From Trichoplax sp. H2 (taxonomy: Eukaryota): DNA of 53,557 nt. The DNA lies in the NCBI GenBank assembly GCA_003344405.1, contig NOWV01000171.1:1-53557 (forward strand), in the 5' to 3' direction. The notes under the pieces are model-generated. The model was not told where the DNA came from. It saw nothing but the letters and a program-made list of their open reading frames with translations, and did not search any database. Below are positions 11,601 to 53,557 of the stretch, piece by piece. Positions within the stretch are counted from its first letter, which is position 1; each line of letters begins with the position of its first letter. Position numbers and translations under genes: made by a program.

Positions 11601-13453
11601 TTAGCATAACTTATAGATACACTTTACTTCCATTTAGCCATGCGAGTATTATCAGTCTATAACGGAACGCTATAGAATTATGATAGTTTAAATAGCTCAA
11701 ATTTTCAAACGTGAAAATTAGCCGATCATCTCCACTACCAATTTTGAATAATTCATTTAAATAAATAAATAAATTACTAAAATATACATTATAATGGGTC
11801 TGTGTAGTCTATATCAAGAGAAATAATTATAGTTGAATCTAAACTACACGAGTCTTGTATAAATAGTTTAAAAATCAATCAAGATATCTTAAGATGACTA
11901 ATCAATTTGCCCCAATTTCTGAGGCATCTTTGTAATAAGATTAAAAAATAAACTGATGACCTTAATACCAATATTTGTAGCCATTATGCAAATGGATAGC
12001 CAATATTATGAAGTAACAACATCTTGTCTATTTAACTTGCCGACTATATGAACTAATTCCTTGTGCGTTAGCCATGGCTTAATTGTAATATAATGCAAGC
12101 TTACTTTTACTCAAACTTGCAAGATTAATATTTACTGGACAAAATGTATTGCCTTGATTTGATCGACAAAAGTTCAATTAAGAATGAGACAGCGCGCAGG
12201 AAGAGTCTGTGATTAATTCAGTACTCTGCCAAAATATGCTTATTGCTAGCTTAACTTGATAGATATAAGCTCCATTTTACTAATGAGATCACCTTTATTC
12301 TGATGAGCATTCAAACTATATCTTTAAATTGATGGACAGAAGATATATTTAAGGATCAGAATATCATTATTGTTTATATATTAATTATCATTAGCTCTAC
12401 AAATTGATGATTTATATTACGTTGTTGATTGAGAGAATATGGCCAACAACAAATAGATGAATTTATCAGATATTAGATTGCTTTTTTCTATTCACGATAA
12501 TTCTCTTTGATCATTGCCTACTTTGTATACAACATTGAACTTACTGAATCGTGCATGCTAACGTTTGCTTCTAGGACTTAATCTGAATAAATCAATATTG
12601 ATTCGATCCTCATTAACATAATTAGCGCTTCTATCATAATTAAATTCTCTGTAGTTTTTATCGTTAGAACATCACTGATACAATGTAAAGTATACTGATT
12701 CCTTGTCTATGTACATGGAACCAATTCAAGTTAAGGCTTGATCTACTTTTTACTGTATTATGAACTTTTTGCTAGTGCTCTAGCTTTCAATCAATTACGC
12801 TGAATTCATTTAAAAGAGAGATTTCCTATTTCTCGCTAGAAACTAGGATTAGATAATGATTTAGCACCTACAAGCAATGTGGAGAAATATTTTAGAGGAT
12901 AATATGATGATCATGAAAAAGATTTTAAATCGTTTTATAATTAATATTGACATTAGGCTTAGTTTCTTTCATGTTACATCAAAAAGGTTACCGCTCGATT
13001 GAAAACTTATAAAGCGGCCGCAACGACAATTTTTATTAATTTTAACATATTTTGCTGGACTGTGAAAGAATTCAAAGAAGGCGCATTTTACATTAAAAAA
13101 TAGAACCTTTTTGGATAATGAACTTTCATTTCACTTGAAATATCCTAGCAGTGTTCCAATTCCATTTCAACGCATTCGATGTTCAATTAGTATTATAGCT
13201 ATTGAAAACCATACGCTGATTCATCCAATCTTTACCTGCAAAGAAACGCCAATAATTGATTTTAATTTATTTTTTGTCATTTCAAGAATTATACGTGCAT
13301 ACTCGTATAGCTATTCTTATAGCTTTGCAATAGTCTTTAAGTTAGTCCATAAAATCGCAGAGCTTTTAGAAATTTACATAACTTATTAACTACGCCCATG
13401 CTTTGGATATCCTCAGTCTTAAGTCAGATAAGTACTAAAAAATTTCATCGAAA

Positions 13454-13680
13454 ATGGATACTTCTTCTATCAATTTCACTACTGCCAACCAATCACAGCC
13501 TATTCTCACTCAAAAATTTACCTTAATAGTGATGGTACTACAAAGTTTTTTGGCTGTTATCGGCATTCCAACTAATATTACAGTCAGCGTCTATCTAATT
13601 TGGCAATGGAATAAAATCAAGCTAAACGATGCACTGATCCTAAATCTAGCACTAGCCGATGGATTATATTGCATACTGAG
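13454..13680 (+). CDS. Orphan class A GPCR, paralog 2, exon 1. Encodes the N-terminus with NFT and NQS sequons, TM1 and TM2 (LILNLALADGLY).
   Basis: ATG at 13454. Donor CTG AG|GTAAGA is phase 2, the same intron position as paralogs 1 and 3. Confidence 0.85.
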
Positions 13681-14811
13681 GTAAGAATTATTTTTCATGT
13701 AATAAGACGGAAAATATTTTCTACTAATTCCCTTTCCATCTCTATTTATCACACTTGTCTAAGTAATAAAAAACTAGAAATCTTCCACTAATTCACTTTT
13801 CATTTCACCTTTATCATATCCCCCCCCTAATTAAGACAAACATTAGTCCATATAAGTTACTTATAATTAATGAGAGCTTCATTGCTTTGAAGATATTCTA
13901 TTGCTATAGAAGTGAATAAACTTAATCTACAGTTTTTCTTTGCTAGTAAATTATTGATTAATTCGTTCCGCTTGCACACCGCATGCACTCAAATAGACAA
14001 AGATAATTTAATGTTATCTTAATACAAAATATACGAAGTATATACCATACAGTACAGCTGTGATATATACCAATCACGAGATTCCAAATTTTAGAAAAAT
14101 AAGGCTTTATTGAATCTTACACAGAGATTAACTACACACAGCTCTACTCTAGCCGGATACTACTTCTAAAGACTTCCAGAATGAACTAACAGAATAATCT
14201 AAAGTTGCATGCTTTTATACTTTCCGTAGCATTCGCAGCTGCAATCCGCAAGGCAACCTTTTACCTTATTTTACACATAGCTAAATTATTCTTAGTAAGA
14301 CTATTCTACTGCGGACCATCATTAATCCAATATGGATACCACTACAGTACTTACGCAGACATTATTCACACCAGCCAAAGTACAATGAATTAATCATATC
14401 CTAATATATGATTTACAGTTCTATTTTTACCTATAGCCTTATTAGTAACTCAATACCTTACTGTATATAGTCATCTGTACTCTTGCATAGAGTCTATACT
14501 ACTACAGTCTATAGTTATAGCTACCAAATATCTCTTAGGATAAATATCTACCGTACATTATACTAAACATGGCTAATAGTCTACAATCACAATACTAGTT
14601 ACATTACAACAGCGCTTGATGCAAATGGGCAATTTTTATCGTTGCACTTACATGTATCCCTCTGAAAAGATACTCTCTAAATTAATTTAAGAATTCTTTA
14701 AACCTTTTATAAGTATATGATAGCAGTTCTCAATATCATGTAAATGTAAATACCTTGTTCTAGTATTTAAATGTTTTAATTTTGGCGCAAATTTTATAAC
14801 TTCATTTATAG

Positions 14812-15700
14812 TTATTTTCTCTTCTTCCCAAATTTAATGAAAATCTATAATGGTCAAATACCCATTTACGATTCAAATACGCTTCTTTGTCGACTTAATA
14901 TGGCAATACCTCTCTATTTCTTTATCAGTAACATTAACAGTATAACATTGATGGCAATTATTCGTTATCTGGTTATTGTAAGACCAAGAAAATTAATGTG
15001 GCTGAAAAAGAAAAGATGGGTCTCTAGTCTTTACGTCCTAAATTGGTGTATACCTCTCATATTTACCTTGCTTCCTTTATTTGGCTATTGGAGTAAATAT
15101 TCTTACTTCTCCACATCTGGCCTTTGTGTTATCATATATAGATTAGACCAAAATAGTAGCAATCAGAGCTACTTTATTTGCTTCCTATTGTGTGTATTAA
15201 TATTACCTATCTTGATAGTTACATTCTGCTATTATAAAATTTATTACACTGTTAAAGCGAGTAAGAAAAAGCTTAGTTGTCATGCAAGTATTGGTAAAGA
15301 TTTGGCTTCGTCGTATTCATCCTTTGCATGGTCTTCCTCGCATAGTCTACAAAGTGTTGCAAATAAATGGAGTAAACGACGAGAGTTAGCATTCACTCAA
15401 ACTTTGTTGATTATCTTTATCGCATTCCAATTATCTTTTCTGCCTTTTACGGTATTATTCTTGTTAACTTACTTACATTCACTAACATTACTTATCCAGT
15501 TTCTTGTTGGTTTCTTCTTACTAAGTTCTGTCGGTAGCGCTATTAATCCAATAATCTATCTCGTACGTAGCAAAAAATTCAATCAAACATCGCCTACTTT
15601 AAAACGAAATATATGTTATTCTGTTAAAGCTGTTCCGATCCTTATTGCCTCTTCTAACTCTCTTTATAATACTGCTAAAGGAAATAAGCTCCATGCATAA
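14812..15700 (+). CDS. Orphan class A GPCR, paralog 2, exon 2 (TM3 to the C-terminus: CRLNMAIPLYF...IRY...NPIIYLVRSKKF).
   Basis: Only one phase-compatible acceptor exists downstream of the in-frame stop at 14777-14779: cttcatttatag|T at 14809-10. It adds about 10 aa to ECL1 relative to the paralogs. ORF runs to 15700. The stop and everything from TM3 on are secure; the acceptor is less so. Confidence 0.7.
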
Positions 15701-22627: not shown

Positions 22628-22842
22628 ATGAACGAGACTACCAATGGTAGTTACTTTATTCTGAATGTGAATCGAGATTTTGCTGTCGTATCTATGGTCT
22701 TCCAAACCTTTTTCTTGGTAGTTGGTGTACCAGCAAATGCTTTAGTTTGCTTTTTTACATTTCGCAAAAAAAAGGATATTAAACTAAGTAACATTATTAT
22801 ATCGATGCTAGCAATATCAGATGGTCTCTACACTATTGTCAG
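22628..22842 (+). CDS. Orphan class A GPCR, paralog 3, exon 1. Encodes the N-terminus with NET and NGS sequons, TM1 (GVPANALV) and TM2 (MLAISDGLY).
   Basis: ATG at 22628. Donor GTC AG|GTAAAT is phase 2. Confidence 0.85.
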
Positions 22843-23229
22843 GTAAATAATTAAATTTTTTTATTACTTCAAAGCCGATATTTATATATTTTTTTATAGA
22901 AGTTGTAGAGTCAATTTTTGGAGAGAGATGAAGTTTTATAGTATCGGTCAATTTTAATGATCGGTAATGAGTAACTGGATCTAGACTGGTTTATATTAAA
23001 ATACATTATTTCGCATCTACTAGTAGAAATTTAATAGGACTCACATCTATTATTTTACGAAATCATTACAATTTGATTATCTATTCACTAATGTTTACGT
23101 ATATCTATTTTTCTTTCCTGTATGATGGTTCGATCGATAATTTTTTTCAATTCGATGGTCTACTTCTTTGGTTATACCGGTTATTATATCTGGGGACAGT
23201 TATATCGTTTTCTTTCCTGCTATGTATAG

Positions 23230-24106
23230 AGCTTCTATCGGTCGAACTCCTGTTTATCCCACATCGACAATTAGTTGTCGAATCGAAGTTGGGTTACCTC
23301 TATATTTTGGAATAGTCAATATCTATTGCATGACTGTATTAGCGGTGACAAGATACATCGCTATAGTTACGCCGCAGCGTATGATTACTGTGAGGAGGCG
23401 ACACGGAATCTTGATTATATCACTTTTAACTTGGACTTTACCATTGATTTTTACTCTACCACAAATATTTGGTTATTGGGGTGGTTTTAGTTATACTAAT
23501 GGTCTTGGTATATGCCTCGGCGTTTATCATTATAGCCAAGGATTCTTAACTGGTTCTTACTATATATGCTTAATTTTGTTTGTAGTTCAATTTCCGACTT
23601 TAATTATCGGTTGGTGCTATCATCAAATTTACCTTGAAGTGAAAAGAAGCCGTTTGCGTATTAGCCAATTCCGTTCTAGTACCGAACATGATGATCCATC
23701 CGCTTCTAGCCACTCACGAGGAACTAAGCGAAATATAACTATCTCTGGCAATCAAGGAAATCGTTCTAGTAGAAGGCGGGAACCCGAAAATCGAAAAGCC
23801 GAAATTGCTATCGCTAAAACTTTAGTAATTATTTTTGTTACATTTCAAATTTCATTCATGCCCTATAGTGTAGTATCTTTCTATAATTTCATCAGTCATA
23901 CTTCTTACACAGTCTTACTTCAACTTGGCTTACTGTTTGTGACTTACATTGGTAATGTAGCCAATCCCTACATATTTTTATTTCGTAGTGATAAGTTTCA
24001 AAAATTCTGCAACTGGCGTTTAATGAAATGTTGTCAAAAGGGAAGATTTAACACTAAAGTTAGGCCAGTACGTTTACCTGATACTGAGCTTTCATCACCT
24101 TCATAA
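23230..24106 (+). CDS. Orphan class A GPCR, paralog 3, exon 2 (TM3 to the C-terminus: SCRIEVGLPLYFGIVNIYCMTVLAVTRY ... GNVANPYIFLFRSDKF).
   Basis: Acceptor ttctttcctgctatgtatag|A is phase-matched, giving AG+A=Arg. ORF runs to the stop at 24104-24106. Confidence 0.85.
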
Positions 24107-24689
24107 GAAACTGCTTCTGCCCAATTTTTTTCTTTTATCTGAATGATGTATTTATGATTAACCATTTCATTAAACATTCTTTAAGGTGAATATTAGTATC
24201 TCACTCTATGATGAGGATAATAAGAAAGAATTTTATAAATTTACTTTTTTTTTTCGCATTACAACATTATTCATTCTTATCGTAATCTTTAAATCAGGAA
24301 AACATAGCTGCTGTAATTGGTTATAAATTTGTGATATTAATTCACGTAATAGAAAATATCCAACCAATTATAAGATTCTACATTTCATCGTTTAGAAATT
24401 GCTGAAGAGAATATAATTCATTTTTTATTAGGTGCATAATAATCTTTAACAAACTTCTTCAAATGAGAATGTTGATAATAACTTTACTCTTTAAATTGAC
24501 TCATTTACTTATAATCAATTTACCGCCCCTGTAATTTAGGTGAAGATATCATATTATTTAATTAATTGACGATGCAAAATTATTTACCATTACAAAATGG
24601 TGTAAACAATTTATTTCCTTAAATTTTTCTTAGATTTATTAAATTATTTTGTCAGGTTTGATGGTTGGCCTCCATTGGCCTGAAAACTG

Positions 24690-24722
24690 TACAGTGTACA
24701 CTGTATAGTGTACACTGTATAG
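24690..24722. repeat. Perfect 16-bp palindrome TACAGTGTACACTGTA, followed by a tandem-duplicated 14-mer AGTGTACACTGTAT x2. Preceded by TGGCC-TCCAT-TGGCC.
   Basis: Seen directly. Self-complementary. Lies about 0.6 kb downstream of the GPCR3 stop. Confidence 0.8.
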
Positions 24723-27700
24723 TTTGTAACGAGTATATATGCAGTTATTAAGCATATATATGATTATAGCCGGCAAAATAGTATATCAATACGCAAGTAC
24801 TGTAATTTCGGTATACTTACTGTGCATAAGAATACACAGGTATAATTAAATATAATTATTAAATATCGATTAAAATATCGCATTATAAACTACTATATAA
24901 ATCTTTAACTTATGGATTGATATTTCAGCATTGATCTGAAGATATGTGCGAGTATATTGCCCTATCCCATGGTTAAGAAACAATTTTTATTTGCTTCGTT
25001 ATCATCTTTCCTTCAACCAATTTTAAAACTCCAAAATAAAAGTTAATACAAAATATGCCGGAAGGAATTGTAAAATTGACTATCACTATCTCTATTTGAG
25101 CTCGTATTTTACACTTAGTTATAACGGTAAAAATAACAGCTATCGTATTAAAAAATTGTAATTTAGTATCACGGTATATCTTAACCATTTCATTTTTATT
25201 AATCGTTATTGAGGGCCTAATTAATCGTTTAAGTCTGCCTTTACTTAGATAAATTGTAACAATGATGCAAGTTAATAGTAGCTGTAAATTATAAATACGG
25301 GGAAGTCAATGGTATCAAAATAGTTTAAGATTAGGAATGTTATCCTATATCAAGCCAGTCAGTACGATAGCCCCTGTATTCGTCTAAACTAGAAAAGATT
25401 AGACAAACGTTGCTCTACATCCTTCTGTAAACGTCGTCAATATGTCTAGTTCCATGATTTCCTAGTTTTCTAGTGATTTTGTGAACTGATTAAAAAATGA
25501 AATCACCAACTGTCGATTCTAGAAACCTGAATTGTAATCAAATTTGTAAACTGTTTAAGAATAAAATGCGGACTGGTCTCTCGAAAAAAAATTAAATTAT
25601 TTATGGTGATGTGTATGATTGAATAACAGTTATTAAGCTTTTTACAGACAATACAGTAACTACGTTCTAGAGCAAAAAGATAATAAGGTGGTTCATTGGC
25701 GCTTATTTACTATTTATTGGTAACAGCTACGTAAAAATCAAGATAATTAATTTTTAACAAAAATTTCGAAGACTATGATAATAAAAACATTCGTGATGGT
25801 TTTCCTTATGCAAGACAATTGAGTACTACAGATTTTGTAATTCTAAAATAGTCATTTGTGTAGATTGAACCTTAATTATTGTAGCAATGTCTTGAACTGT
25901 CGATGTACTATTTTATATTTTATCTACTTTTTGTTACTTCGTACTAATGTAGTTGAAATATGAAATGGAATAAAATATTTATATATATTTATCACCTCCT
26001 GTGGGATAGAATAATTATGCTTCATAACCAGAAAATTTTATGTATATCAGATATTTATAAGCCTTCGGCTTGTCACAAAATTAGAACAGATTAAAATTTC
26101 AAGAAAAAAATTGAGAACTTTTCAAACCGCTTTGTCTAATATATACTCTGATTACATACTATGTAAGTGCTATAGAAATCACAGATATAAAGTTCTCACC
26201 AGGTAACAGTATGTTTTCATATAATTACAACGCACCAAGTACAAATCAAGATGTCTAGATTTCTAGTTTTACTGCCTATTAAATCTATTTGTTTACTAAT
26301 TATCTTTCTTAACTTATATTAAAAGAGAGTAACCCACAAATTATTCTAGTCCTATCACGGTTGAGCAATAATTAACTTATTCTTTTGCGTGAGGAAATTG
26401 GCCAATATGATTAATAAACGATTATATCATCTTTTATCAACGGAGGTCGTTTACGATATCCTATAGAACATCATTTTGTTTTCATTAAAGTATTAAATCA
26501 TTCCAGCTATCAATTGATATGAATTTAAATACTTTTGCTATGATTTCCTTAATTTTTTAATTTCTTACATATCATATGACGCTTTTTGTGTAAAGCAGAA
26601 AACTATAATTAAATAATGCGTGCAATCGAAGTCAACACACAGAAAATTGGCATTAATGATACATTAGTTATCAAAAATATGAAGAAGATAAATAGGTAGC
26701 AATCAGTTGACGATAAAGTCAATTTGAATTTCCATTATTAATTTTGTCGAAGATCTGTGAAAATTTTACGGCATTAAAGATAGATACAATATACTCATTT
26801 CTAACCCTTTTTCGAGCTTACCAGCAGTAGAAATATATGTCAGTGTTCCTTATATTGAGTAAAGATTCTATAGTAATTCGTATTAACTGCAAATCAATTT
26901 GTCAAGCACCATAGTTTATCGGTTATAGTCAAGCTAAGTCTTTACTATCTACTATTTTTGCAACTATTCCATGTATTCATTAAAAAGTAAGGTTATACCA
27001 AATTTAATGATATTTACTACTTATTGATTCGATTTTATATTTTTAATCATGGCATAAGCTCTGTTTTTTCGGAAAAGTTATCATACATACAATTAGATAG
27101 TGCATACAATCACTATAGTTCTTAGATTATCAATGTCAGTTAATTAAGACTACAGCTCTACAAATAAATATATTCAGTATTGTCTTACGTTAAAGATGAT
27201 GGTGAGTCACCATAACTGATGCTATGATTGTAAATACCAAGTTAAAAAAAAATCTATGCTAAATTTAACGAATAGCTTATCATTTGCTTTTTTAAAGTAT
27301 AGTCTGTGATAAAACTTGGCAATTTCAATGATTTGGCAGCATAATTGTTAAAAATTAGCGTAAATTGCCTTAAGAAAAAAATCTGTCGCATTTGTTTGTC
27401 AAGGCAACAGAAAGCTTTCTTAGTTTATTACAGAATATTTGATAGCGTTATCATACGAAAATAGTGTATTAGCTTGCACGATATTATCAGATGACAGTAA
27501 AGACACTAGAATAATAGTACTCAAAATATTAAATTTATTTAGACATCAAGTACAATAGTAACAAGGTTTTTTCCCCTTATACCATACAACGCGAATGGTA
27601 TTTACATATAGTAAGTCATCATTAATGAAAAAATATACAATTAGTCACGATATTGGTAAAAGTAATTAAGATACAATGTATTACTATAGAATAACATGTT

Positions 27701-31302: not shown

Positions 31303-31462
31303 TTAAATCCATATATCCGACGTACAATCTCCGCCTGGATATCGAACCTCATGAGCTAGCGCAGGACCATCTGGCTCTTTACCAAAATCCACACAAAGGT
31401 TCGAAAGTGTTAATCCACCTTTTTCAGTATTAACGTCGATTTGTAGCAAAACCGATCCAGTT
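31303..31462 (-). CDS. SELENBP1: SBP terminal exon 11 ([53 protein letters not shown]).
   Basis: Acceptor ttttctag. Matches the human C-terminus ...[29 protein letters not shown]. Summed CDS is 1419 nt, 472 aa, identical in length to human SELENBP1. All exon phases are consistent. Confidence 0.9.
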
Positions 31463-31633
31463 CTAGAAAATGAGGTTATAGAAAATTTAAGATTGTACAT
31501 ATTCTAATATGATTTAATGGATACGCTACATTAGTATCTAGCTATAAACTTATGAAATAACACTATTGTGTCGGATAACACGAGTAGATTTGTGACCTTC
31601 ACAAAGGGGAATATTTCGGTACTTAGTACATAC

Positions 31634-31845
31634 TTTAATAAATTTGGATAAAACTGTTTATCCCAAGGACTAAATAGTGATGTGGTAACGAACAGACGTT
31701 TGCCATCTAAACTTAGTTGTAACATTTGAGGGGCTCCATCAATGTTTCGGTTATTAAGGATAAGTGGATCAGGTTGTTCTTCAAGCTCGGAGTCTTGGAT
31801 TACCTTGACCGGCCCTGTCTTTACAATACTTCCACCAAGGAAGAT
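31634..31845 (-). CDS. SELENBP1: SBP exon 10 ([70 protein letters not shown]).
   Basis: Acceptor tcttaaag. Matches human [69 protein letters not shown]. Donor AA|GTATGT is phase 2. Confidence 0.9.
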
Positions 31846-32308
31846 CTTTAAGATAGTAAAATGAAAAAATTAGTTTCAAATTTATAAAAGAGAAGCTAGC
31901 ACAAGTTAGATGAAACATGAAGTTATACGAGCGCATTTCGTCATCTTTGTTTTACTAAAAGTAAATGGTTTTGCTGTGATTCGAATAACTTGGGTAAAAG
32001 TATTAAATATAATGGATCACGTTATTGCTAGAGCTGGTGTATACTATACCAGCATTTTATATTCTGCCTTCGCTATCTTCGAAGATATTTATTTTTATGC
32101 TGTATACTAATCTAATAATGCTAGTATTTAAAAAGAATTTGAGATTAAATCTAATTTATTTGTCACTGCCTTTCACGAAGACATATAGTTACTTCGTTTA
32201 GTGGTATTGAACTGCGTTTTGCGCTAAACGATCAACTAAAAACTGGCATTATATACGAATTATGTCATACGAGTACGTGTATATGTGTTGGTAATCGTCC
32301 TATCATAC

Positions 32309-32430
32309 CTGTCCGACGAGTCTTGGGTTAGCCCTATCAGTTATGTCGTACTGTCTTATATCACCATGTAACCAGTTCGAAAAATACAAATATCGATCGT
32401 CCAAAGACAGAATAATATCGGTTATAAGAC
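32309..32430 (-). CDS. SELENBP1: SBP exon 9 ([40 protein letters not shown]).
   Basis: Acceptor atattag. Matches human [40 protein letters not shown]. Donor CAG|GTATGA. Confidence 0.9.
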
Positions 32431-32507
32431 CTAATATGATTTTATAGGATAAGATTCAAATTTTAAGAATAAAGTAATTATCAAATAGTGATAGCGTAAC
32501 ATCGTAC

Positions 32508-32586
32508 CTGGCATTTCGGGTAGGACCCATCCTTCTACTTTTTTTGGAGGTACCTGAATTGCTTTATGAGCGGCCCAATCTCCTTT
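32508..32586 (-). CDS. SELENBP1: SBP exon 8 ([27 protein letters not shown]).
   Basis: Acceptor ctatag. Matches human [27 protein letters not shown]. Donor G|GTACGA is phase 1. Confidence 0.88.
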
Positions 32587-32677
32587 CTATAGATTTACAT
32601 TTTATAGTAATTGTTTAAATTTTCAAAACGAAGTTTGGAGCAGAAACAAATATTAAATACATGACCTAGAAGTTTAC

Positions 32678-32859
32678 CTCCGTTTTATAAAATCTAAATA
32701 TAGCGCTACTCAGAGCACATCCCACGTATCCTTGAGTTTCATTGGGATCATGTAAGAAACGAATTTCTAGTGGTGTTATTCCTTCGTTCCCAAGGCGGAT
32801 TACCTGCTGTAGGGTATGATCTTCCCAATTGTAAACGTTGAGACTGCTACCATATTTAC
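32678..32859 (-). CDS. SELENBP1: SBP exon 7 ([60 protein letters not shown]).
   Basis: Acceptor tttttaag. Matches human [59 protein letters not shown]. Donor GAG|GTAAAC. Confidence 0.9.
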
Positions 32860-33037
32860 CTTAAAAATAATTATTCAGTTTTCATATCACTAGTGTATCT
32901 GATGTAATAATTAATATTTAATATACAGTGATAGAACTCTTATAGAATGCCGGAATACATTCATCAGTAGCCTACAAATGGCTAATTATTTGTGGTTATT
33001 ATATATTTTATGAGTTGAATTTTCAACACTAGCTTAC

Positions 33038-33220
33038 CATTCTGTACATCTTCCATGCTAAATCCAGCACTTAGTGCATTTGGTTCTCCCCATTCAGTGC
33101 TTATCATGACGTTATGGCGAGGTTGATACCAATAATCATATCCAAATTCGGCATTATTGCCTTCCTTTTCCCAATTGCCTGTAACCTCAAATGTCTTGCC
33201 ATTTATGAGTACAAATCCGC
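33038..33220 (-). CDS. SELENBP1: SBP exon 6 ([61 protein letters not shown]).
   Basis: Acceptor ctgagcacag. Matches human GFVLLDGETFEVKGTWE...[36 protein letters not shown]. Donor G|GTAAGC is phase 1. Confidence 0.9.
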
Positions 33221-33319
33221 CTGTGCTCAGTAAAGGATAACTAGTATTAAGATAAGTATCATGGTATAAACATGAACGTGACAATATAGGGTTAAAATCG
33301 ATAATAAATAACTATTCAC

Positions 33320-33440
33320 CCTTTTTTTCCCCATTTGAGTCTCCTAAACAGCTAATCATTATATTTCCATCGGCTAGGCAATGGCTGGTATGAGGAAAGC
33401 TTAGATCAGTCTTTGAGGAAATTTCTTCCGGCTCAACCAC
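33320..33440 (-). CDS. SELENBP1: SBP exon 5 (VVEPEEISSKTDLSFPHTSHCLADGNIMISCLGDSNGEKKG).
   Basis: Acceptor ttttactag. Matches human [42 protein letters not shown]. Donor G|GTGAAT is phase 1. Confidence 0.88.
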
Positions 33441-33621
33441 CTAGTAAAACAATAGCAAATGCATAATTACTTTATTGTTTTATCTACCTACGCCAATAAA
33501 TCAAATTATGCAGTAGTTGTTCAATACTATATATTAATGTAAGTATAAGAAAGCAATACGTGAGTGAATAGACCGATTCCAACTGTATTTTAATAAAGCG
33601 AATTAATTAAATAATATTTAC

Positions 33622-33736
33622 TTTGAAGATTCTTGGAGCTTTAGGGTCTGTTTTAACATCAATAACATATACTCTACTGGATTTCAGACTGGGTAATATC
33701 AGTTTATTACGTTCTTTAGTCGAATCTCCAAAGCAG
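33622..33736 (-). CDS. SELENBP1: SBP exon 4 ([38 protein letters not shown]).
   Basis: Acceptor cattatatag. Matches human [38 protein letters not shown]. Donor AAA|GTAAAT. Confidence 0.88.
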
Positions 33737-34057
33737 CTATATAATGAAAAATGTTAAGTGTTGTTAAATCAAATAGCCAACTGCAATTAAAGAATCTTAA
33801 AAATTATTAAATCAATTTGCAAAAACGAAACAATTATAGCATCCTATTACAACACCGAACCATTTCATAATATATATTAATTACACTATTAATTTAGAAA
33901 ATTTAAATGTCTTATGCAGATCATGATATATTCTGGCTAATTATTCTGATCAGTGTAAGGCAAGAGACCATGATAGCTGAGAAACTATTAGGATTATTGT
34001 TTAGTTTGTATATCACGCGTTGTTTTGTTCATTATAAAGCTTATAATTAATAAGCAC

Positions 34058-34076
34058 CTGCTACAAGTATTCCAGC
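34058..34076 (-). CDS. SELENBP1: SBP exon 3: a 19-bp micro-exon encoding (G)WNTCS(S).
   Basis: tttctttag|GCTGGAATACTTGTAGCAG|gtgctt. Phases 1 to 2. It restores the exact human motif HHSGWNTCSSCFGDS between exons 2 and 4. Without it, exons 2 and 4 are out of phase. Confidence 0.8.
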
Positions 34077-34834
34077 CTAAAGAAATGATTATAGTTAACG
34101 AACTAATTAGCAAACCAAGAGCATATCAACATTTTAAAGTAGACAATACATTTAGAAGATCATAGAGCTAGAATCTAACACTTACAATAACTTATTTTAA
34201 GCATGCTACAAAAAACAGTACCAGATTATAGTTACGTAAAATAGAGTAATGTAGATACCTCCTGCTCACGATTTAGATTTTGCTTTAAAGTTAAACTTCA
34301 ATCGGCGTTATTATTATCGAATTTACAGAAGATATTATGTTCTAACGGTAATTTTGCTTTCGTTTAAATTGAAAATATGTATGCGAAAAAGTATACGACT
34401 AGTAAGCTTTTTCCAGTCAACTGTCTACAACTATTGACATTTTTATTATTTTAACATACTATGGTCTACGTTGCTACGTATCTCACTCAATTTCTACTTG
34501 GAAGTTATCATACTGCAGTGATACCTATCTTTTTATGTATGCACTAAAAATGATATGGTTATTCACTATATCTAAGAGTATATTTAAAAAAAGTACGCCG
34601 ATATAGTAAAACTGACCATATTGTACTTAGGACTAAACTACTTTTAATTTATAGAAAATCTTTATAGTAAATTCAAGACTATTTAGTCATTATACTGTAA
34701 GTATAATATTTAATTGATCATAGTATATCGAATAGTATTGATTGATGTTCTTTAATAATGATTAATTATTATTTGGAGAACTACACGCAATTCATTTAGT
34801 TACTTAGCATAGGTAGTAAAGAATACAAATTTAC

Positions 34835-34886
34835 CTGAATGATGGATTTCGTCTCCAATGTGAAGCATAGACAACCGGTGAATGAC
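34835..34886 (-). CDS. SELENBP1: SBP exon 2 (VIHRLSMLHIGDEIHHSG).
   Basis: Acceptor ttttag. Matches human VIHRLPMPNLKDELHHSG. Donor CAG|GTAAAT is phase 1. Confidence 0.88.
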
Positions 34887-35274
34887 CTAAAACATTCATT
34901 AACAGTAAATTAAAATAGTTGAAAAACTTGTTTTAAAATGCAGGATTAGTTACTTACGCATTTAATATTTTTACGATACGATTTAAAGATTAATTACTAT
35001 TTGTTCCTCATATCACTACTTTGATATACATTATTTATCAAATAAAATATGACAGTCGTATATAATAATAAGCTTGATTCTGGGTAATTTGGCGTGGTGG
35101 TGTACTATATAACTGTAACGTATATCGAATAATATTAGTTTACAGTCCTTAATCTAGAATACAACTTTTAAGCTTTGGAAGAATTGATAAAAATCGATTG
35201 CAAAGTATGAACCATATAATGCAGTATTTGTTAGTTTGTAGTAGTGGAAAACGTGTCTTATTGATGGAACATAC

Positions 35275-35448
35275 TTGACCATAGGTCTCTGATTCCAAGT
35301 CAACGTCAACAGTTGCTAGATAATCTGGCTTCTTAACATCAGTATTATTATAAATGCAAGGTATATATAGTAATTTCTCTCTAGGACCTTTCATAGCATC
35401 GATTGGTGTTAAGTATCCCGGACCGCAGCTAGAGCAAGCTATAGGCAT
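35275..35448 (-). CDS. SELENBP1: Selenium-binding protein (SBP56/SELENBP1 family; methanethiol-oxidase family), coding exon 1.
   Basis: ATG at 35448-35446. The 58 codons [58 protein letters not shown] align with human SELENBP1 ([37 protein letters not shown]...[18 protein letters not shown]). Donor CAA|GTATGT. Confidence 0.88.
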
Positions 35449-41008: not shown

Positions 41009-41229
41009 TTATACGATCATTGATTGGGTAACACGTCTTATGGAATATGAAATCAGGTCTGATAACACAAAATAGTCGAAACTTACTGAAGGCGTCTCGT
41101 TATGTTGTTTTTGATGACATTCATCACCATATACTATCGTATTCTCAGGTATTGTTTCATTGGCACTTAGTTGACAGTGAGCTCCAATTATGCAGTTGTT
41201 TGTAATTTTCGTATCTCTACCAACGATAG
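41009..41229 (-). CDS. DCTN6: Dynactin subunit 6 (p27) terminal exon (AIVGRDTKITNNCIIGAHCQLSANETIPENTIVYGDECHQKQHNETPS...*).
   Basis: Acceptor atcatcatag. Matches human [47 protein letters not shown] (left-handed beta-helix hexapeptide repeats). TAA stop at 41009-41011. Confidence 0.8.
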
Positions 41230-41463
41230 CTATGATGATTATGCAAAGACGAAGTAGCAATACAATTATGAAAGAATATTGTCTGCCTTTTACATCATAA
41301 CATTGACTATTGAACAGTTTAATATACAGATTGGTTGGCTAAATATTGGCAAAGAAAAATGTTAGTATTTATAAGCGGTAAGCTGTTTGATTATATGTAA
41401 TCAAGGAATTGGTCCCACTTGGAATGAAATGCTAGTACTGAACATATATTTGTTGAGTTATAC

Positions 41464-42210: not shown

Positions 42211-42275
42211 CGATATAGATCTCTCCTTTTAGTTCAGCTTGCTGGCAGACTATTGCACCAGGGGCAATTTTGATT
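42211..42275 (-). CDS. DCTN6: DCTN6 exon (IKIAPGAIVCQQAELKGEIYIG). This is the first conserved coding exon. There is no in-frame ATG here, so the start codon must lie in an upstream exon.
   Basis: Matches human [22 protein letters not shown]. Donor G|GTAAGC is phase 1. The inferred phase-2 acceptor is aatgaaag|A at 42276-77. The open frame upstream contains no ATG; the ORF tool's start at 42343 is TTG. Confidence 0.7.
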
Positions 42276-42789
42276 CTTTCATTGACAAAATTATAATAAT
42301 CAATAAGGATACAAGACGTTCGTTGTCTACCGATGTAATCCAAACGGCTAAAAGAAGCCGTAAAACTAGTTTTAAGGTATATGTGAGCTATACAGTGAAA
42401 TTGAGTAGCTTGATATCATTGAACTATTGTCACCAACATCAATCCATGATCAAAAATACTCGTATGATGGCATTATCATGTCTGCTGCAGACAGTCAAGA
42501 TTTGCCCTTTGCCATGCCATATATAGCTTAATGAAGAGGTACAGTAATTTGTGCGTGTAACATCGATCCTATTTATAAATTCAATAGCGAGGTAGAATCA
42601 AGTGCATAGGGAGATCATTTCGCCTTACTGTGATCTTGAAGACATCCTTGACTTTAAAGCATTAGCAGCCTGTTTGGTAGTGAAATGAAGTCTAGTCGTC
42701 CGGTGATGGATTAATGAATAATAATAAAGGAAAATTAACGCTATGCCACTCTAATAAATTCCCTAATTAATAATGATGTGGAAAAGCGT

Positions 42790-43560
42790 TATGGCTAAGC
42801 AATGCTGGTGTTGGAGGTCCGGTCTTGACTAGATACAGTACCGTACTGAGTCGACTCCACTGTTGTGTACAGTACTGTACTGTAGGGGCGGAATGCCATG
42901 TCCAAATGGACGTCTACTGTAGCAAACAGACAGACGGATGTACGTATTTTGTTGACATACCGGAAATGGTTAATACGGTCAATAGGGGCTTTTTCAACGC
43001 CAATGTTTTCTTCCATAATTTCTTGCCGCGCTTGGCTGTCTGTAGTACAGGTAATAACAACATCCATTTCTTTTCTGCAAATTGACCGCAGTTACAAAGC
43101 AGCCATTGTCTTTTTCTGCGCCGTTTAGTCTCTCCTCTTTGATTCTCTACCGCCATAGTCGTGATTTTCTTCTACTCAAAACATAGTCAAAAGTCGTACT
43201 GTGCGTAGGTTTTCCAGTCGGCATGACTCATACAGTACTGTCTACTGTAAACAAGCGAGTACAGTACATTGTACTGTGGCTGAAGAGGTCCGAGATCGGT
43301 CCATACCGGACTTGACTGCGCTACAGTGTACAGTGTACAGTATGCTGTACTGTAAGTTGGATTGAGGGTGTTTACCAGTACTGTAGTTGAGCACGCTTGC
43401 CATTGCTTGTTAACTATAGATCATAAAGGTACTGAACCGAACCGGACCGGACTCAGGTCTAGTTGGAAGATTATCAATTGGGCTGGGCAGGGAGAAAGCA
43501 ACAGCCCGCTGGCTTACTTTACCTACTTCTACTCGTATACGAAAAGCATTCTTGATTGGA
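42790..43560. promoter_or_regulatory. GC/CpG-enriched island (about 45-53% GC against a background of about 30%). Putative bidirectional promoter between divergent DCTN6 (-) and ADAM10 (+). Carries at least 8 ACAGTAC/GTACTGT palindromic motifs.
   Basis: CCGG and GCGC dinucleotide clusters. ORFs of 76-90 aa on both strands in four frames, as expected where stop codons are depleted. Motif instances at 42834-48, 42867-80, 43231-41, 43257-79, 43322-54 and 43376-86. The ADAM10 ATG follows at 43629. Confidence 0.5.
42961..43067 (-). CDS. Candidate 5' coding exon of DCTN6, or an independent small ORF (MDVVITCTTDSQARQEIMEENIGVEKAPIDRINHF). Speculative.
   Basis: ATG at 43067-43065 inside the GC/CpG-rich island. 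It ends with a strong donor, CG|GTATGT, in phase 2, exactly the phase the 42275 acceptor needs. No homology support. An alternative 20-nt start exon, ATGATAATGCCATCATACGA|gtattt at 42460-42479, is also phase 2. Confidence 0.25.
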
Positions 43561-43628
43561 AGGGTAGAATTCATTAAATTGGAAAAAATTATTCCTCCTT
43601 GTCATCTTCCTGTGCACATTGGTTGCCA

Positions 43629-43689
43629 ATGATGGAGAGCAAGCCGATAATTTTCATTTTAGCTATCGTTTGTATTGGATTTTCGCAAG
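43629..43689 (+). CDS. ADAM10: ADAM10/Kuzbanian-type metalloprotease exon 1: start codon plus signal peptide (MMESKPIIFILAIVCIGFSQ).
   Basis: ATG at 43629. Hydrophobic signal peptide. Donor CAA G|GTAATG is phase 1. The first ATG downstream of the GC island. Confidence 0.7.
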
Positions 43690-44234
43690 GTAATGTTCGC
43701 TTGCACCATTTCATCTTGTCTCGTTGACGCTGGTATCAACGCTAATTAGAATTCTAATCGTTGAGGAACGAATTGAATGAATGTTGTTATTACACCATAA
43801 TCAGCAATTGTCAATCGGGATGATAGCTATCACAGTAATAGTTATCCATGTACAGGCGAAACCAACATCAATTAGTCATGAGATATTTTCTTAACTGATC
43901 TGAATACCATGGTGACCAAAAGAATCGAAAGGGGCTAAATATGGGCCTTCTCCTTTGACAACCCCCCTCTTTCCACACGTATACGACGTGATATTGATCG
44001 TCCCCATTCATGAATTCAATATGGATACTTATCGTCTGCAAGAGTCGAACGAAAATCCCTCACGCTCATCGTACTTCTTCTGCTTGTTGACTGAGTAGAG
44101 AGTATTTCACAGTATTCGTACTTTTAGACGTATAATTTGGATAGGTTACTATGCGTACGTAAACGCTAATAGCGCATGGGCGTGCACTGCAATTACTTAG
44201 CAGATAGATCCATCTTTGTTGCAATATGAACTTC

Positions 44235-44564
44235 TATCCTATTGCTCTACCCTGAAAGGATGCTATCGATCTGTTAGAGTACAATCATTTTTTCCTTTGA
44301 TTGAATTCGAACGTGATAGAAACCTCTCAATAATGCCATCATCATATCTTACCATTGCCTACCCTGAAAGGATGCTATCGATCTGTTAGAGTACAATCAT
44401 TTTTTCCTTTGATTGGATTCGAACATGATAGAAACCTCTCAATAATGCCATCATCATTTCTTACCATTGCCTACCCTGAAAGGATGCTATCGATCTTTTA
44501 GTGTACAATAATTCAAACGTGATATAAACCTCTCAATAATGTCATCATCATTTCTTACCATTGC
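44235..44564. repeat. Tandem repeat (minisatellite), 112-bp unit, about 3 copies. The third copy carries an internal deletion of about 19 bp. Lies in ADAM10 intron 1.
   Basis: Unit ctaccctgaaaggatgctatcgatctgttagagtacaatcattttttcctttgattgaattcgaacgtgatagaaacctctcaataatgccatcatcatatcttaccattgc starts at 44247, 44359 and 44471, with a few substitutions. Confidence 0.85.
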
Positions 44565-45118
44565 CTTTGATTTTACGTACATTCATTCGCAATCGGAGGG
44601 TTAGTGGCATGATGACTCGCAGTGCTTGTTTATTCGTAACGCCTGATCCTAATTGCTTAACGAATTGATGCAGAAAGTAATGTTGTAAGACAAAGAAATA
44701 ACTTGTGTGAAAAACCTGATCTAAATCATCGACTTCATGCTGTTTATTGGGTGTCGCCGCGACCATCCATATCATTTTTACCCAGAAATTGTTGAGGCTT
44801 CAACTCCTATTTATACAGTATAGTATAAACTGTAGTGGTTCTATTTTTATTGGTAGCCGCTGAGGCTTGAACTGAACATAGGAATAGCAAGATTTCTCAT
44901 ACAGTAAATAATAAATAAATAATATCCTGAAGTGAAATGAATCAGTTTATATAAAAACCTCACGTCATCATCAGAAATTACCCAGGAGAGAAAGAAGTTA
45001 CTGTATTGTTGGCTGCTTTAACCTAGAGTGATACATTAACAGATTGATATGTTGTAACTGGAATCATGTGTATTTGTAACATTGAATATACTACAGTAAT
45101 AATTTTTACGTTTTGTAG

Positions 45119-45257
45119 GTTTCCAATCTTTGAGTAAACATATCGGCCGCTATGAAACGCTAGTTTATGACAACGAAGAAATTAATAGACGTCACCAAGA
45201 AGTAAAAAAACATAACGTTAAAATGGCGTTATCGCTAGCGTTCACCGCTTACAAACG
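45119..45257 (+). CDS. ADAM10: ADAM10 exon 2 (prodomain: FQSLSKHIGRYETLVYDNEEINRRHQEVKKHNVKMALSLAFTAYK).
   Basis: Acceptor ttttgtag. Matches human [29 protein letters not shown]. Donor CG|GTAATT is phase 2. Confidence 0.8.
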
Positions 45258-47793: not shown

Positions 47794-47873
47794 GTTAGTA
47801 AACCTATTTTGAATATTGACATTACTCTACTAAAGTTATAATCTTTACGCTGACATGCTGTTAATTTTAATAG

Positions 47874-51641: not shown

Positions 51642-53557
51642 CTGCAAATAATAATTTAATAACTACCGCATAATCTTAAACTTCAAATCCCATAATAAGA
51701 TACAAAAAATACTGGTCGGTTCTAATCAGATTCTACTGCTTTTTATTGCACTTGATGATTCTCATTGACTTCAATGATTTGCCTCTGCAGTAATCTACAG
51801 TAAGTTGAAGAACCTCAGGCAGAAGATGTACTATGAATCTGTGATCACTATTTCAAATTTAAATTTAGTAAATGAACTTAAACTTAATATGTTCTCTCCC
51901 TATTTACTGTTAATTTACTGCTCGTCGTCAGGTGAAAGAAGTACTGAAAGTTTACTCAGCGCTGATAGAAAATAATAATATGTACGGCAGCCGGATGACA
52001 TTGGCTAGAGGCCACTGCAGCCAGACACTATGCTAAAGTATAGCACTGTGCATCGCATACTGTACCGTGGAGGGAGTGGTGTAAAGTACTGAGTCAACAG
52101 TACAGGTATAGTGTTTTAGTTATCTAGTAGTCCATATCGAAAGCTTTAGATCGTGCGAAACAGAGGTTATTATTATACTGTATATTTAAAATTTCTGGTT
52201 AAAAACCCGTTAACTCTATTTAGCTGTTGGATTAGTAGTGAAATAGAGCATACATATATATATATGTTACGGCCATTCCTAAGAGTGATTTTGTTCTTGA
52301 GATATATACTGTACTACATACACAATGTATATACGTACTATCGCGTTAATATGGTCTGATATTTTAACTAAGATTAATCAGGTAAAGTGTATATATTATA
52401 CGCTCACAGAGAAATCATTTTAACGTTATAGAAGATGATAACATTTAATATCCACTACTGAAACCAACAGAAAGCGGTTATTTACGATTGTAATCATGTA
52501 ATACATCTGAAGGACTGTTTCAGCAAAGAGTTTAATGCAAAATGAACGGGGTACATAGGATCGCCCACTGAGTATATAGTAAATAGTAAATAATTCATAA
52601 GAAGAGTTAGCCATAATTTTTAGCTCCCATGCTTTTTACCCGTATTAGAAATTTCATAGAATTTCGGTACCAAGACTTGGAATTTTACTATAATTCATTC
52701 GAATTAGAATTAGTTCCACAGATAATCCTAGCTCGTACCTTTACTTAAACTTACACATGAGGATGGACATGACTAGTGAAGATCATTTTTTATTCTGCAT
52801 CATTACCAAGATTACAAATCCATGATCTTTATACAATTATGCAATAAGTAACGTCGTCACCGTCTTCGATAAAAACATGAACACTTGTATCAACTTTCAT
52901 TGTAATTTCAAACTTAAAATATTAACCGATTGTCCATGTTAATAGTTATGATATTTTAGTATAAACTTTACAATCATTTGTGCAAGAAATCAATTATAAT
53001 AATATATATATATATATTACTTCAACGGATTATACCGGACATGTTCAACCAAAGTTTTTAACTATACCATGCTTACATTTACATAGCTAGAATATGGCGA
53101 TTTTTGTATTCTATACAAATATATTACTGTTTAGTTTCGGAGGCATTGAAATAACCAATAAAATGATTCAGTGCATTTCTAAACATAAAATGTGTGTAGT
53201 ATGTATGTATTATGATTAGCTACATAATAAGATAACGATGAAAAAGCTTCTTAGTCATAAAGAAGCATGTAAGTGTTGCTGTGTCAGCTAGGTGTTGCAA
53301 GGATACAAATACATGTCTGTAAGACACTCAATGCCTTAATGTTACAAAGTACAGTACTGCGCTGAGTCTATCTATACATATAAGTACAGTATATACAAGC
53401 TAGAAGTAAGAAAAAATCCGTTGAATACTACGAATGTAATATCGCGACGTAAATAAAATCTTCTTATCCAGAAAATTAATCAAAAATGCCTTGAGATTTA
53501 AATAAATATTTGTAGCCAAAAAATCATAGAATAATGATATTACAATTTTTAAATCCT

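What the first reader, a model, noticed from the sequence alone, without database searches (positions are those of the whole stretch)
24690..24722. The same palindrome family recurs in other non-coding sites, including a perfect 16-bp palindrome and composite GTAC(A/C)GTACTG...GAGTC elements
TACAGTGTACACTGTA at 24690-24705 is perfectly self-complementary and is followed by a 14-mer tandem duplication. Related inverted motifs are found at 44811-44837 (TATACAGTATAGTATAAACTGTAGTGG, itself flanked by the 12-mer direct repeats gaggcttcaact and gaggcttgaact), 52056-52106 and 53348-53368. Three sites share the longer composite GTAC[AC]GTACTG(N0-2)GAGTC: 42837-52, 52084-96 and 53352-68. That suggests a short dispersed element such as a MITE-like hairpin, a small-RNA precursor or a recombination hotspot, and not chance occurrence.
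Basis: seen in the sequence. Interest (0 to 1): 0.5.

Follow-up and report, generated by a model that had tools for sequence, protein, structure and literature searches.

The report
Placozoan ACAGT/TACNGTA regulatory motif arrays
The palindromes are real, non-random clusters of a short self-complementary DNA word (ACAGT / TACNGTA) in a Trichoplax genome, most likely docking sites for a regulatory or chromatin-organising protein and not a mobile hairpin element, and the word itself has already been reported for this animal.

Summary
The window is nuclear DNA of the placozoan Trichoplax sp. H2. The 16-bp perfect palindrome and the 14-bp tandem duplication at 24690-24721 are exactly as described. 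The underlying word is strongly over-represented: TACNGTA occurs 64 times against 17 expected.

Four dense ACNGT arrays exist where about 0.01-0.14 are expected. One is the finding itself. The other three lie within 550 bp of the divergent interval between the dynactin-6 and ADAM10 genes.

Flanks carry no conserved sequence, no target-site duplications and no long terminal inverted repeats. Only the 24690 site folds better than shuffled sequence. Its long hairpin is partly due to a duplication that T. adhaerens H1 lacks; H1 has one 14-mer and a 28-bp palindrome.

A relaxed form, GTACTG-N0-5-AGTC, matches 6 times against 0.18 expected.

A 2026 paper reports 'repeating motifs ACGG and ACAGT' as insulation-associated in T. 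adhaerens. A 2025 paper reports a motif at placozoan promoter hubs.

Best reading: arrays of a protein-binding motif at promoter or architectural elements, expanded locally by slippage. The MITE, small-RNA and recombination-hotspot readings get no support here. Mostly a rediscovery; moderate-to-low interest.

The parts
24684..24725 (.). 42-bp imperfect palindrome, also readable as five 7-bp units (TGTAYAS)x5. It is the finding's own site. It lies 580 bp 3' of the GPCR3 stop codon (24106), in a 7.2-kb convergent intergenic interval.
   Evidence: Fold gives a 19-bp stem and 4-nt loop, -27.9 kcal/mol, z = -6.2. TRF reports period 7 x 5.1 copies. No gene is annotated between GPCR3 and SBP56 in T. 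adhaerens H1.
24690..24705 (.). Perfect 16-bp palindrome TACAGTGTACACTGTA, conserved in H1 and H2.
24694..24721 (+). Tandem duplication of the 14-mer GTGTACACTGTATA. It is present in Trichoplax sp. H2 only; T. adhaerens H1 has one copy, giving the 28-bp palindrome AAACTGTACAGTGT|ACACTGTATAGTTT.
   Evidence: H1/H2 alignment shows a clean 14-bp gap. TRF reports period 14, 2.7 copies, 95% matches.
42827..42884 (.). Array A: GACTAGATACAGTACCGTACTGAGTC ... TACAGTACTGTACTGTA. It has six ACNGT words, two GACT/AGTC-flanked composites (42827-42841 on the minus strand, 42843-42852 on the plus strand) and a (TGTAC)x3.8 run at 42866-42884. It mixes ACAGT with ACCGT.
   Evidence: identical in H1
42915..42921 (.). 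Isolated TACTGTA next to array A.
43224..43277 (.). Array B: TGACTCA (AP-1-like heptamer, 43224-43230) directly followed by TACAGTACTGTCTACTGTA ... GTACAGTACATTGTACTGT. It has five ACNGT words.
   Evidence: identical in H1
43322..43385 (.). Array C: (TACAGTG)x2.9, then TATGCTGTACTGTA, plus a further TACTGTA at 43379-43385.
   Evidence: identical in H1
42273..45226 (.). Divergent intergenic interval between the H1 gene models for dynactin subunit 6 (minus strand, window about 40891-42273) and ADAM10 (plus strand, from about 45226). It holds arrays A-C and the weak 44814 site.
   Evidence: Gene calls on L001 and L003, mapped by blastn at 99% identity.
42961..43016 (-). Putative first coding exon of dynactin-6 (MEENIGVEKAPIDRINHFR, then a GTATGT donor). 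This is an inference only. The ATG further upstream at 43067 is put out of frame by an H1/H2 1-bp indel.
   Evidence: ORF and donor read; indel seen; the H1 model lacks a start exon.
43633..43689 (+). Putative first exon of ADAM10 (signal peptide MESKPIIFILAIVCIGFSQ, then a GTAATG donor). This is an inference. The H1 model P0002 lacks a signal peptide and about 70 N-terminal residues.
52045..52106 (.). Weaker cluster D: ACTGT ... TACTGTACCGT ... GTACTGAGTCA ... ACAGTACAGG. It includes GTACTGAGTC (52086-52095) and TGAGTCA (52090-52096). It lies about 1.2 kb upstream of the 5' end of the annotated EF-hand gene (minus strand).
   Evidence: identical in H1; gene call
53350..53391 (.). Composite E: TACAGTACTGCGCTGAGTC plus TACAGTA at 53385. 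H1 has T instead of C at 53357, which breaks GTACTG there.
44814..44834 (.). Weak inverted pair TACAGTA-N-ACTGTA. It contains only two words and is not significant on its own.
   Evidence: (z = -1.9)

Best explanation
The palindromes are local arrays of one short, self-complementary DNA word in the Trichoplax genome. The core is ACWGT, best written TAC-N-GTA or as (GTACN)n and (TGTACAG)n runs. It is often flanked by GACT/AGTC (GACT-N0-5-CAGTAC).

I think these arrays act at the DNA level as multi-site docking platforms for an unidentified sequence-specific protein, probably a dimer. They would act at promoter-proximal or architectural elements: the promoter hubs, loop anchors and insulation points described for placozoans.

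Long palindromes and hairpin potential are side-effects. A self-complementary word repeated head-to-tail is also an inverted repeat, and replication slippage adds or removes units.

Shown: the over-representation; the clustering; the position in a divergent intergenic interval; the lack of transposon anatomy; the H1/H2 copy-number change; and the match of the word to a published insulation-associated motif.

Inferred: protein binding; the promoter or architectural role of these particular arrays; and the idea that the ACGG-type and ACAGT-type motifs are variants of one site.
For: 1. Identity of the genome. The GPCR at 7683-8630 is 100% identical to a Trichoplax sp. H2 protein. The window is 98.8-99.0% identical to T. 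adhaerens scaffold DS985241.1.

2. Word statistics. ACAGT is the top 5-mer (191 vs 101.7). ACTGTA is the top 6-mer (103 vs 35.6). TACAGTA occurs 51 times vs 12.5. All four TACNGTA variants are enriched: A 31 vs 6.2, T 20 vs 6.3, C 8 vs 2.4, G 5 vs 2.4.

3. Clustering. Four arrays of at least 4 words are seen, against 0.01 expected or 0.14 expected.

4. Position. Three of the four arrays sit within 550 bp (42835-43385), in the divergent interval between the dynactin-6 and ADAM10 models. This is the most GC-rich part of the window. The three GPCR genes and SBP56 have no array near their starts.

5. Literature on the word. [quoted passage not shown] It attributes the ACGG motif to the transposon-borne motif of Kim et al.

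6. Literature on placozoan promoters. Kim et al. 2025 (PMC12221973) find a motif at loop anchors and housekeeping 'GP1' promoters of four placozoans, including Trichoplax sp. H2. Peptidergic cell-type genes (GP3) lack these chromatin features. Najle et al. 2023 (PMC10580291) place placozoan regulatory elements mostly at promoters and first introns.

7. Mixed arrays. The arrays here mix both published words (TACAGTACCGTACTG at 42834, ACTGTACCGT at 52059).

8. Preserved word, not preserved period. Unit periods of 5, 7 and 14 bp all keep the same core word.

9. Composite. GTACTG-N0-5-AGTC occurs 6 times vs 0.18 expected. GAGTC/GACTC lies within 14 bp of GTACNGT 5 times vs 0.97 expected, p = 0.003.
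Against: - No chromatin, transcription-start or binding data could be consulted, so function is inferred from position and from two papers.
- The logo of the Kim et al. motif appears only in a figure and could not be compared.
- The finding's own site at 24690 is not at any annotated promoter. It lies between two convergent 3' ends.
- ACWGT is also about 1.6-fold enriched inside coding exons (3.1 per kb, vs 3.7 per kb outside and about 1.9 expected). Part of the global excess is therefore compositional, or comes from splice-site words (TACAG|, |GTAAGT).
- H1/H2 divergence of about 1% is too low to show constraint. One array word is broken in H1 at 53357.
- Only one motif-rich promoter is in the sample.
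Confidence: 0.55

Rival explanations
1. Neutral micro- or minisatellite-like sequence. A word favoured by the genome's composition is amplified locally by replication slippage. The palindromes have no function.
For: TRF detects short-period tandem structure at three of the arrays. The 24690 array differs between H1 and H2 by exactly one 14-bp unit, i.e. two heptads. The word is also enriched in coding sequence.
Against: Slippage explains expansion within one site. It does not explain the recurrence of the same word at different periods (5, 7, 14 bp). It does not explain three separate arrays concentrated in one divergent intergenic interval. It does not explain the associated GACT flank. It does not explain the published effect of the ACAGT repeat in models of Micro-C maps.
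Confidence: 0.2
2. Remnants of Mutator-type DNA transposons or MITEs whose terminal inverted repeats carry the motif, inserted preferentially at promoters.
For: Kim et al. 2025 report that GP1 promoters often hold Mutator insertions whose TIR contains the loop-anchor motif. Short inverted motif pairs exist here: 43231-43252 with 43333-43354 (22 nt, 82% complementary) and 42834-42848 with 42870-42884.
Against: No 9-11 bp target-site duplication flanks these pairs (read). There is no conserved sequence beyond the core word. No inverted repeat of 24 nt or more carries the motif anywhere in the window. No array of repeated ACGG is present. The Mutator calls in that paper come from an automated structural pipeline (EDTA is cited). 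My inference is that this pipeline could score inverted motif arrays as TIRs.
Confidence: 0.12
3. RNA-level element: a hairpin-derived small-RNA precursor, or a run of UGUA sites acting in 3'-end processing of the upstream GPCR transcript.
For: 24684-24725 folds into a 19-bp hairpin, z = -6.2. The site carries five UGUA and lies 580 nt after a stop codon. ATTAAA occurs at 24638 and at 24845-24869.
Against: Six other sites fold no better than shuffles. There is no Rfam family match. The motif occurs equally on both strands and in a divergent promoter interval. The H1 orthologue has only a 28-bp palindrome. From my own knowledge, not tested here: placozoans are reported to lack canonical microRNAs. 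ATTAAA is frequent in this AT-rich DNA.
Confidence: 0.06

Closest known systems
'Repeating ACAGT' (and ACGG) motifs found for Trichoplax adhaerens by the Chimaera network trained on Micro-C maps (Nucleic Acids Res 2026, PMC12817080; preprint 10.1101/2024.11.14.623548)
   Same: Same genus. The same 5-mer is the most over-represented 5-mer in this window. It has the same repeating arrangement. ACCGT/ACGGT words are interleaved in the same arrays.
   Different: The paper gives the motif in one sentence and a figure, as a predictor of insulation. It does not describe individual loci, the palindromic TACNGTA reading, the GACT flank or the H1/H2 copy-number change. Insulation at the loci in this window was not tested.
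Loop-anchor / GP1-promoter motif of placozoan 3D promoter hubs, carried in Mutator TIRs (Kim et al., Nature 2025, PMC12221973)
   Same: A placozoan-specific short motif concentrated at promoters of housekeeping-type genes and reported to be conserved in Trichoplax sp. H2. Here the arrays sit between dynactin-6 and ADAM10 and are absent from the GPCR genes.
   Different: The motif sequence could not be read because it appears only in a figure. According to PMC12817080 it corresponds to the ACGG-type word, not ACAGT. No Mutator anatomy is present here.
Clustered short promoter/insulator motifs of Drosophila (M1BP 'Motif 1', BEAF-32 CGATA clusters)
   Same: Short words, clustered in both orientations at housekeeping promoters and domain borders. 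PMC12817080 reports that inserting the M1BP motif has a strong effect in the T. adhaerens model because it shares a 4-nt pattern.
   Different: Different sequence and lineage. This is an analogy only, and no orthologous binding protein is implied.
MITEs / Mutator-derived miniature elements
   Same: Short inverted repeats dispersed in non-coding DNA.
   Different: No TSD, no conserved termini or internal sequence, and no discrete element boundaries.

Membership tests
Placozoan 'repeating ACAGT' insulation-associated motif (PMC12817080) | Repeated ACAGT units in Trichoplax DNA | tested here: met
   ACAGT occurs 191 times vs 101.7 expected. Four arrays of 4-6 ACNGT words are present. TRF periods are 5 and 7.
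Placozoan 'repeating ACAGT' insulation-associated motif (PMC12817080) | Association with insulation in Micro-C contact maps | not testable with these tools
   No contact-map data are available here. The H1 coordinates for a check are DS985241.1 about 8,798,855 (24690 site) and about 8,817,002-8,817,521 (arrays A-C), derived.
Kim et al. loop-anchor / GP1-promoter motif | Located at promoters of broadly expressed genes that form hubs | tested here: inconclusive
   Three arrays lie in the dynactin-6/ADAM10 divergent interval. There are no ATAC, H3K4me3 or loop data. The 24690 array is not at an annotated promoter.
Kim et al. loop-anchor / GP1-promoter motif | Sequence matches the published motif logo | not testable with these tools
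   The logo appears only in Fig. 3d. None of the words occurs in the text, and Supplementary Data 1 is not held.
Kim et al. loop-anchor / GP1-promoter motif | Embedded in the terminal inverted repeat of a Mutator element | tested here: not met
   No long TIR pair carries the motif. No TSD flanks the short inverted pairs. No ACGG-repeat array is present.
MITE | Terminal inverted repeats bounding a discrete element, with flanking target-site duplication | tested here: not met
   The 12-mer 'direct repeats' at 44794 and 44862 are chance-level: 122 such pairs in the window and 46 in random sequence. The 56 bp between them has no TIR (read).
MITE | Multiple copies with conserved sequence beyond the termini | tested here: not met
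   Information content of the flanks of 103 sites is about 0. Five composite sites align only over about 25 bp.
Hairpin small-RNA precursor | Stable stem-loop clearly better than shuffled sequence at the member sites | tested here: not met
   Only 24676-24730 qualifies (z = -6.2). The other six sites give z from -1.9 to +1.0. There are no Rfam hits.
Hairpin small-RNA precursor | Small RNAs mapping to the arms | not testable with these tools
   No expression data are available.
Micro/minisatellite | Head-to-tail units with copy-number variation between close relatives | tested here: met
   TRF rows at 24686-24723, 42866-42884 and 43322-43341. There is a 14-bp unit difference between H1 and H2. 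This describes the form of the arrays; it does not explain their recurrence.

The most novel reading that the evidence does not exclude
TAC-N-GTA arrays, with their GACT flank, are the recognition platform of a still unidentified placozoan-specific architectural protein that builds promoter hubs and insulation points. On this reading the published 'ACGG' (transposon) and 'ACAGT' motifs are two faces of the same palindromic site. The 'Mutator TIR' association would be secondary: either a by-product of structural TE callers reading inverted motif arrays as TIRs, or an old domestication. The isolated 24690 palindrome would then be a distal anchor or insulator between two convergent genes.
Probability: 0.3. 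Interest if true: 0.65.

Novelty: new member of a known kind. Interest (0 to 1): 0.33.

Why it matters
Placozoans have thousands of chromatin loops and promoter hubs in a 100-Mb genome without CTCF-type loop anchoring. The factor and the exact DNA code behind them are unknown (Kim et al. 2025).

If the arrays seen here are that code, four things follow from this window:
- the core is a 7-bp palindrome that tolerates any central base;
- it is used in runs with 5- or 7-bp periods;
- it often carries a GACT flank;
- its copy number changes between sibling species.

These points give concrete probes for pull-down or DAP-seq experiments and a simple scanning rule for the four placozoan genomes.

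If the arrays are only slippage-prone low-complexity DNA, the finding is of little consequence.

Tried and rejected
- Bacterial-style annotation: 0 tRNAs, 0 Rfam families and only 4 long ORFs. This showed the window is eukaryotic and was otherwise uninformative.
- Exact-protein look-ups for the H2 GPCR products failed. H1 loci were reached through ADAM10, SBP56 and a cluster member instead.
- No deeper placozoan (Hoilungia, Cladtertia) genomic DNA could be reached. The next-best ADAM10 hit was a 39%-identical cnidarian protein. Conservation could therefore only be judged at about 1% divergence, which is too shallow.
- A literature search on raw sequence words was useless, returning 9,493 hits. 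The Kim et al. text and held supplements do not spell out the motif. Najle et al. 2023 does not mention the words.
- AP-1-type heptamers (TGASTCA) are not enriched overall: 3 vs 2.6 and 3 vs 2.7. I therefore do not claim a bZIP site, only the GACT/AGTC adjacency.
- A 640-bp H1/H2 indel beginning with an ACAGT cluster looked like a possible polymorphic element. It has no TIRs and only 5-bp microhomology (ATAGC), so it was rejected as a transposon.
- The loose cluster at 14399-14523 lies inside the GPCR2 intron. It does not pass the array criterion.
- Resemblances to miR-101/miR-144 5' sequences and to the bacterial LexA box (CTGT-N8-ACAG) come from memory only. They were set aside as coincidences of a short word.

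Full report
**What the window is**

The window has 30% G+C, almost no long ORFs, no tRNAs and no Rfam families.
- A single-exon GPCR ORF at 7683-8630 is 100% identical to 'G-protein coupled receptor moody [Trichoplax sp. H2]'.
- Three loci from the T. adhaerens H1 scaffold DS985241.1 were fetched. They align to the window at 98.8-99.0% identity.
- The window is therefore placozoan nuclear DNA.

The gene map below comes from the H1 gene calls, tblastn and ORF reading.

| Gene | Strand | Window coordinates |
|---|---|---|
| Ionotropic glutamate receptor | + | left end of the window |
| GPCR1 (2 exons) | + | second exon 7683-8630 |
| GPCR2 (2 exons) | + | second exon 14837-15700 |
| GPCR3 (2 exons) | + | second exon 23168-24106 |
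| Selenium-binding protein / methanethiol oxidase (SBP56) | - | 31306-35448 |
| Dynactin subunit 6 | - | H1 model 40891-42273 |
| ADAM10 | + | H1 model about 45226-48664 |
| EF-hand protein | - | about 49517-50866 |

**Checking the observation**

The 16-bp perfect palindrome at 24690-24705 and the tandem 14-mer at 24694-24721 are exactly as stated.
- The structure is larger than described: 24684-24725 is a 42-bp inverted repeat with 19-nt arms.
- The site at 44811 starts one base later than stated.
- Its flanking 12-mers are chance-level. The window holds 122 such pairs within 100 bp, and random sequence holds 46.
- The composite pattern as written has no literal match.
- The relaxed form GTACTG-N0-5-AGTC has six matches against 0.18 expected. 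The matches are at 2236, 42827(-), 42843, 43225(-), 52086 and 53354.

**Is it more than chance?**

Yes.
- Against a dinucleotide model, ACAGT is the most over-represented 5-mer, ACTGTA the top 6-mer (103 vs 35.6), TACAGTA the top 7-mer (51 vs 12.5) and GTACTGTA the top 8-mer (17 vs 1.9).
- Read as the 7-bp palindrome TAC-N-GTA, all four central bases are enriched. The total is 64 against 17.1 +/- 3.8.
- Arrays of at least four ACNGT words with gaps of 20 bp or less occur four times: 24686-24718, 42835-42883, 43232-43277 and 43323-43353.
- Markov shuffles give 0.01 such arrays. Random placement at the observed word density gives 0.14, and none of 20,000 trials reach four.
- One caveat: the word is also mildly enriched inside exons. 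Some single hits are splice-site words such as TACAG| and |GTAAGT. Only the arrays, not every occurrence, call for a specific explanation.

**Anatomy**

- Aligning 103 sites shows no information outside TACAGT(A).
- Five composite sites align only over about 25 bp, giving (T/A)GACT(C/A)-N0-5-CAGTAC-N-GTAC.
- TRF describes the arrays as short-period repeats that keep the same core: (TGTACAG)x5.1 at 24688-24723, (TGTAC)x3.8 at 42866-42884 and (TACAGTG)x2.9 at 43322-43341.
- Because the core is self-complementary, head-to-tail repetition automatically produces inverted repeats.
- Only the 24690 site folds better than shuffled sequence (z = -6.2). The six other sites give z from -1.9 to +1.0.
- No inverted repeat of 24 nt or more in the window carries the motif.
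- The short inverted pairs in the hot region have no target-site duplications.

**Where the arrays lie**

- Three of the four arrays, plus two single sites, fall within 550 bp (42835-43385).
- This stretch lies in the divergent interval between the H1 models for dynactin-6 and ADAM10. It is the most G+C-rich part of the window.
- I infer a signal-peptide exon for ADAM10 at 43633-43689. The H1 model lacks one.
- I infer a first dynactin-6 exon at 43016-42961. The ATG further upstream is frameshifted between H1 and H2.
- If those inferences hold, the arrays sit about 215-400 bp upstream of both start codons and in the first dynactin-6 intron.
- The GPCR genes and SBP56 have no array near their 5' ends.
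- The finding's own site is different. It lies 580 bp beyond the GPCR3 stop codon, in a 7.2-kb interval between two convergent genes, with no gene model in H1.
- The sites at 52045-52106 and 53350-53391 are weaker. They lie 1.2-2.6 kb upstream of the EF-hand gene.

**Comparison with T. adhaerens H1**

- Arrays A-C and the 52-kb site are identical in H1.
- At 24690, H1 has a single copy of the 14-mer. This gives the 28-bp palindrome AAACTGTACAGTGT|ACACTGTATAGTTT. The duplication, or the loss of a copy, is a recent slippage-type event.
- At 53357, H1 has T for C, which breaks one GTACTG.
- At about 1% divergence these data cannot show selective constraint.

**Literature**

- Kim et al. 2025 (PMC12221973) describe thousands of loops and promoter hubs in placozoans. 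An enriched motif sits at loop anchors and at 'GP1' housekeeping promoters. It is shared by four species including Trichoplax sp. H2 and is contained in the TIRs of a Mutator family. Cell-type-specific peptidergic genes lack these features.
- The motif sequence in that paper is only in a figure. The TE annotation cites the EDTA pipeline.
[quoted passage not shown] - Najle et al. 2023 place placozoan regulatory elements mainly at promoters and first introns.

**Interpretation**

The best-supported reading is that the arrays are DNA-level multi-site binding platforms for an unknown, probably dimeric, protein. They would act at promoter-proximal or architectural elements, with slippage changing the number of units.
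- Supporting it: the preserved core across different repeat periods, the concentration in a divergent housekeeping-type interval, the associated GACT flank, the interleaving of ACAGT with ACCGT (the reverse complement of ACGGT), and the two papers.
- Against it: there are no functional data for these loci, the 24690 site has a non-promoter position, and there is a general compositional excess of the word.
- I put this reading at about 0.55.

| Rival | Confidence |
|---|---|
| Neutral slippage-prone low-complexity DNA | 0.20 |
| Mutator/MITE remnants | 0.12 |
| RNA-level hairpin or UGUA element | 0.06 |

**Verdict**

The feature is a new set of instances of a motif class already reported for Trichoplax, so interest is moderate to low. 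The added value is fourfold:
- the palindromic TAC-N-GTA formulation that unites both published words;
- the GACT composite;
- the H1/H2 unit polymorphism;
- the absence of transposon anatomy at these loci.

Noticed in passing
window 44241-44564: A 112-bp unit is repeated in tandem: 2.4 copies at 95% identity, plus a degenerate third copy. It lies in the interval upstream of, or within the first intron of, ADAM10, and is also present in T. adhaerens H1.
   Followed up: partly
window 10190/10191 (L002 12508-13147): T. adhaerens H1 carries 640 bp that Trichoplax sp. H2 lacks. The segment is bounded by 5-bp microhomology (ATAGC), has no terminal inverted repeats, and is rich in ACAGT/ACTGT words. 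It looks like a microhomology-mediated deletion or insertion and not a transposon.
   Followed up: partly
window 5105-5332, 13439-13681, 22628-22843: Each of the three tandem GPCR paralogues has an upstream exon encoding TM1-TM2. The public models for GPCR1 in both H1 and H2 (315 aa) start inside the second exon and so appear N-terminally truncated. GPCR2 has no model at all in the H1 calls.
   Followed up: no
window-wide, e.g. 43147, 42073, 30148: A second word, CGGTAG/CTACCG, is over-represented (21 vs 6.5; ACTACCG 10 vs 2.1). It occurs as scattered single sites without conserved flanks. Its meaning is unknown.
   Followed up: partly
window 42815-42825, 43288-43313, 43437-43457: GTCCGGT/ACCGGAC words (ACCGGAC 6 vs 0.8 expected) cluster in the same divergent interval as the arrays, twice directly before TTGACT...TACAGT, and as GAACCGAACCGGACCGGACTC. 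They may form part of a larger composite promoter module.
   Followed up: no
window 43049 (L001 about 7828): A 1-bp indel plus a substitution between H1 and H2 falls inside the minus-strand ORF that starts at 43067. That ATG is therefore unlikely to be a conserved start codon. The H1 dynactin-6 model has no start exon.
   Followed up: partly
window 24665-24680: TTGGC-CTCCA-TTGGC(C) lies immediately upstream of the 24684 palindrome. It is a direct repeat of TTGGC containing ATTGG (reverse CCAAT). It might be a neighbouring factor site.
   Followed up: no
window 43633-43689 vs P0002: The T. adhaerens ADAM10 model (TRIADDRAFT_52298, 658 aa) lacks a signal peptide and about 70 N-terminal residues. 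A signal-peptide-like exon with a good splice donor lies about 1.6 kb upstream of the start of that model.
   Followed up: partly
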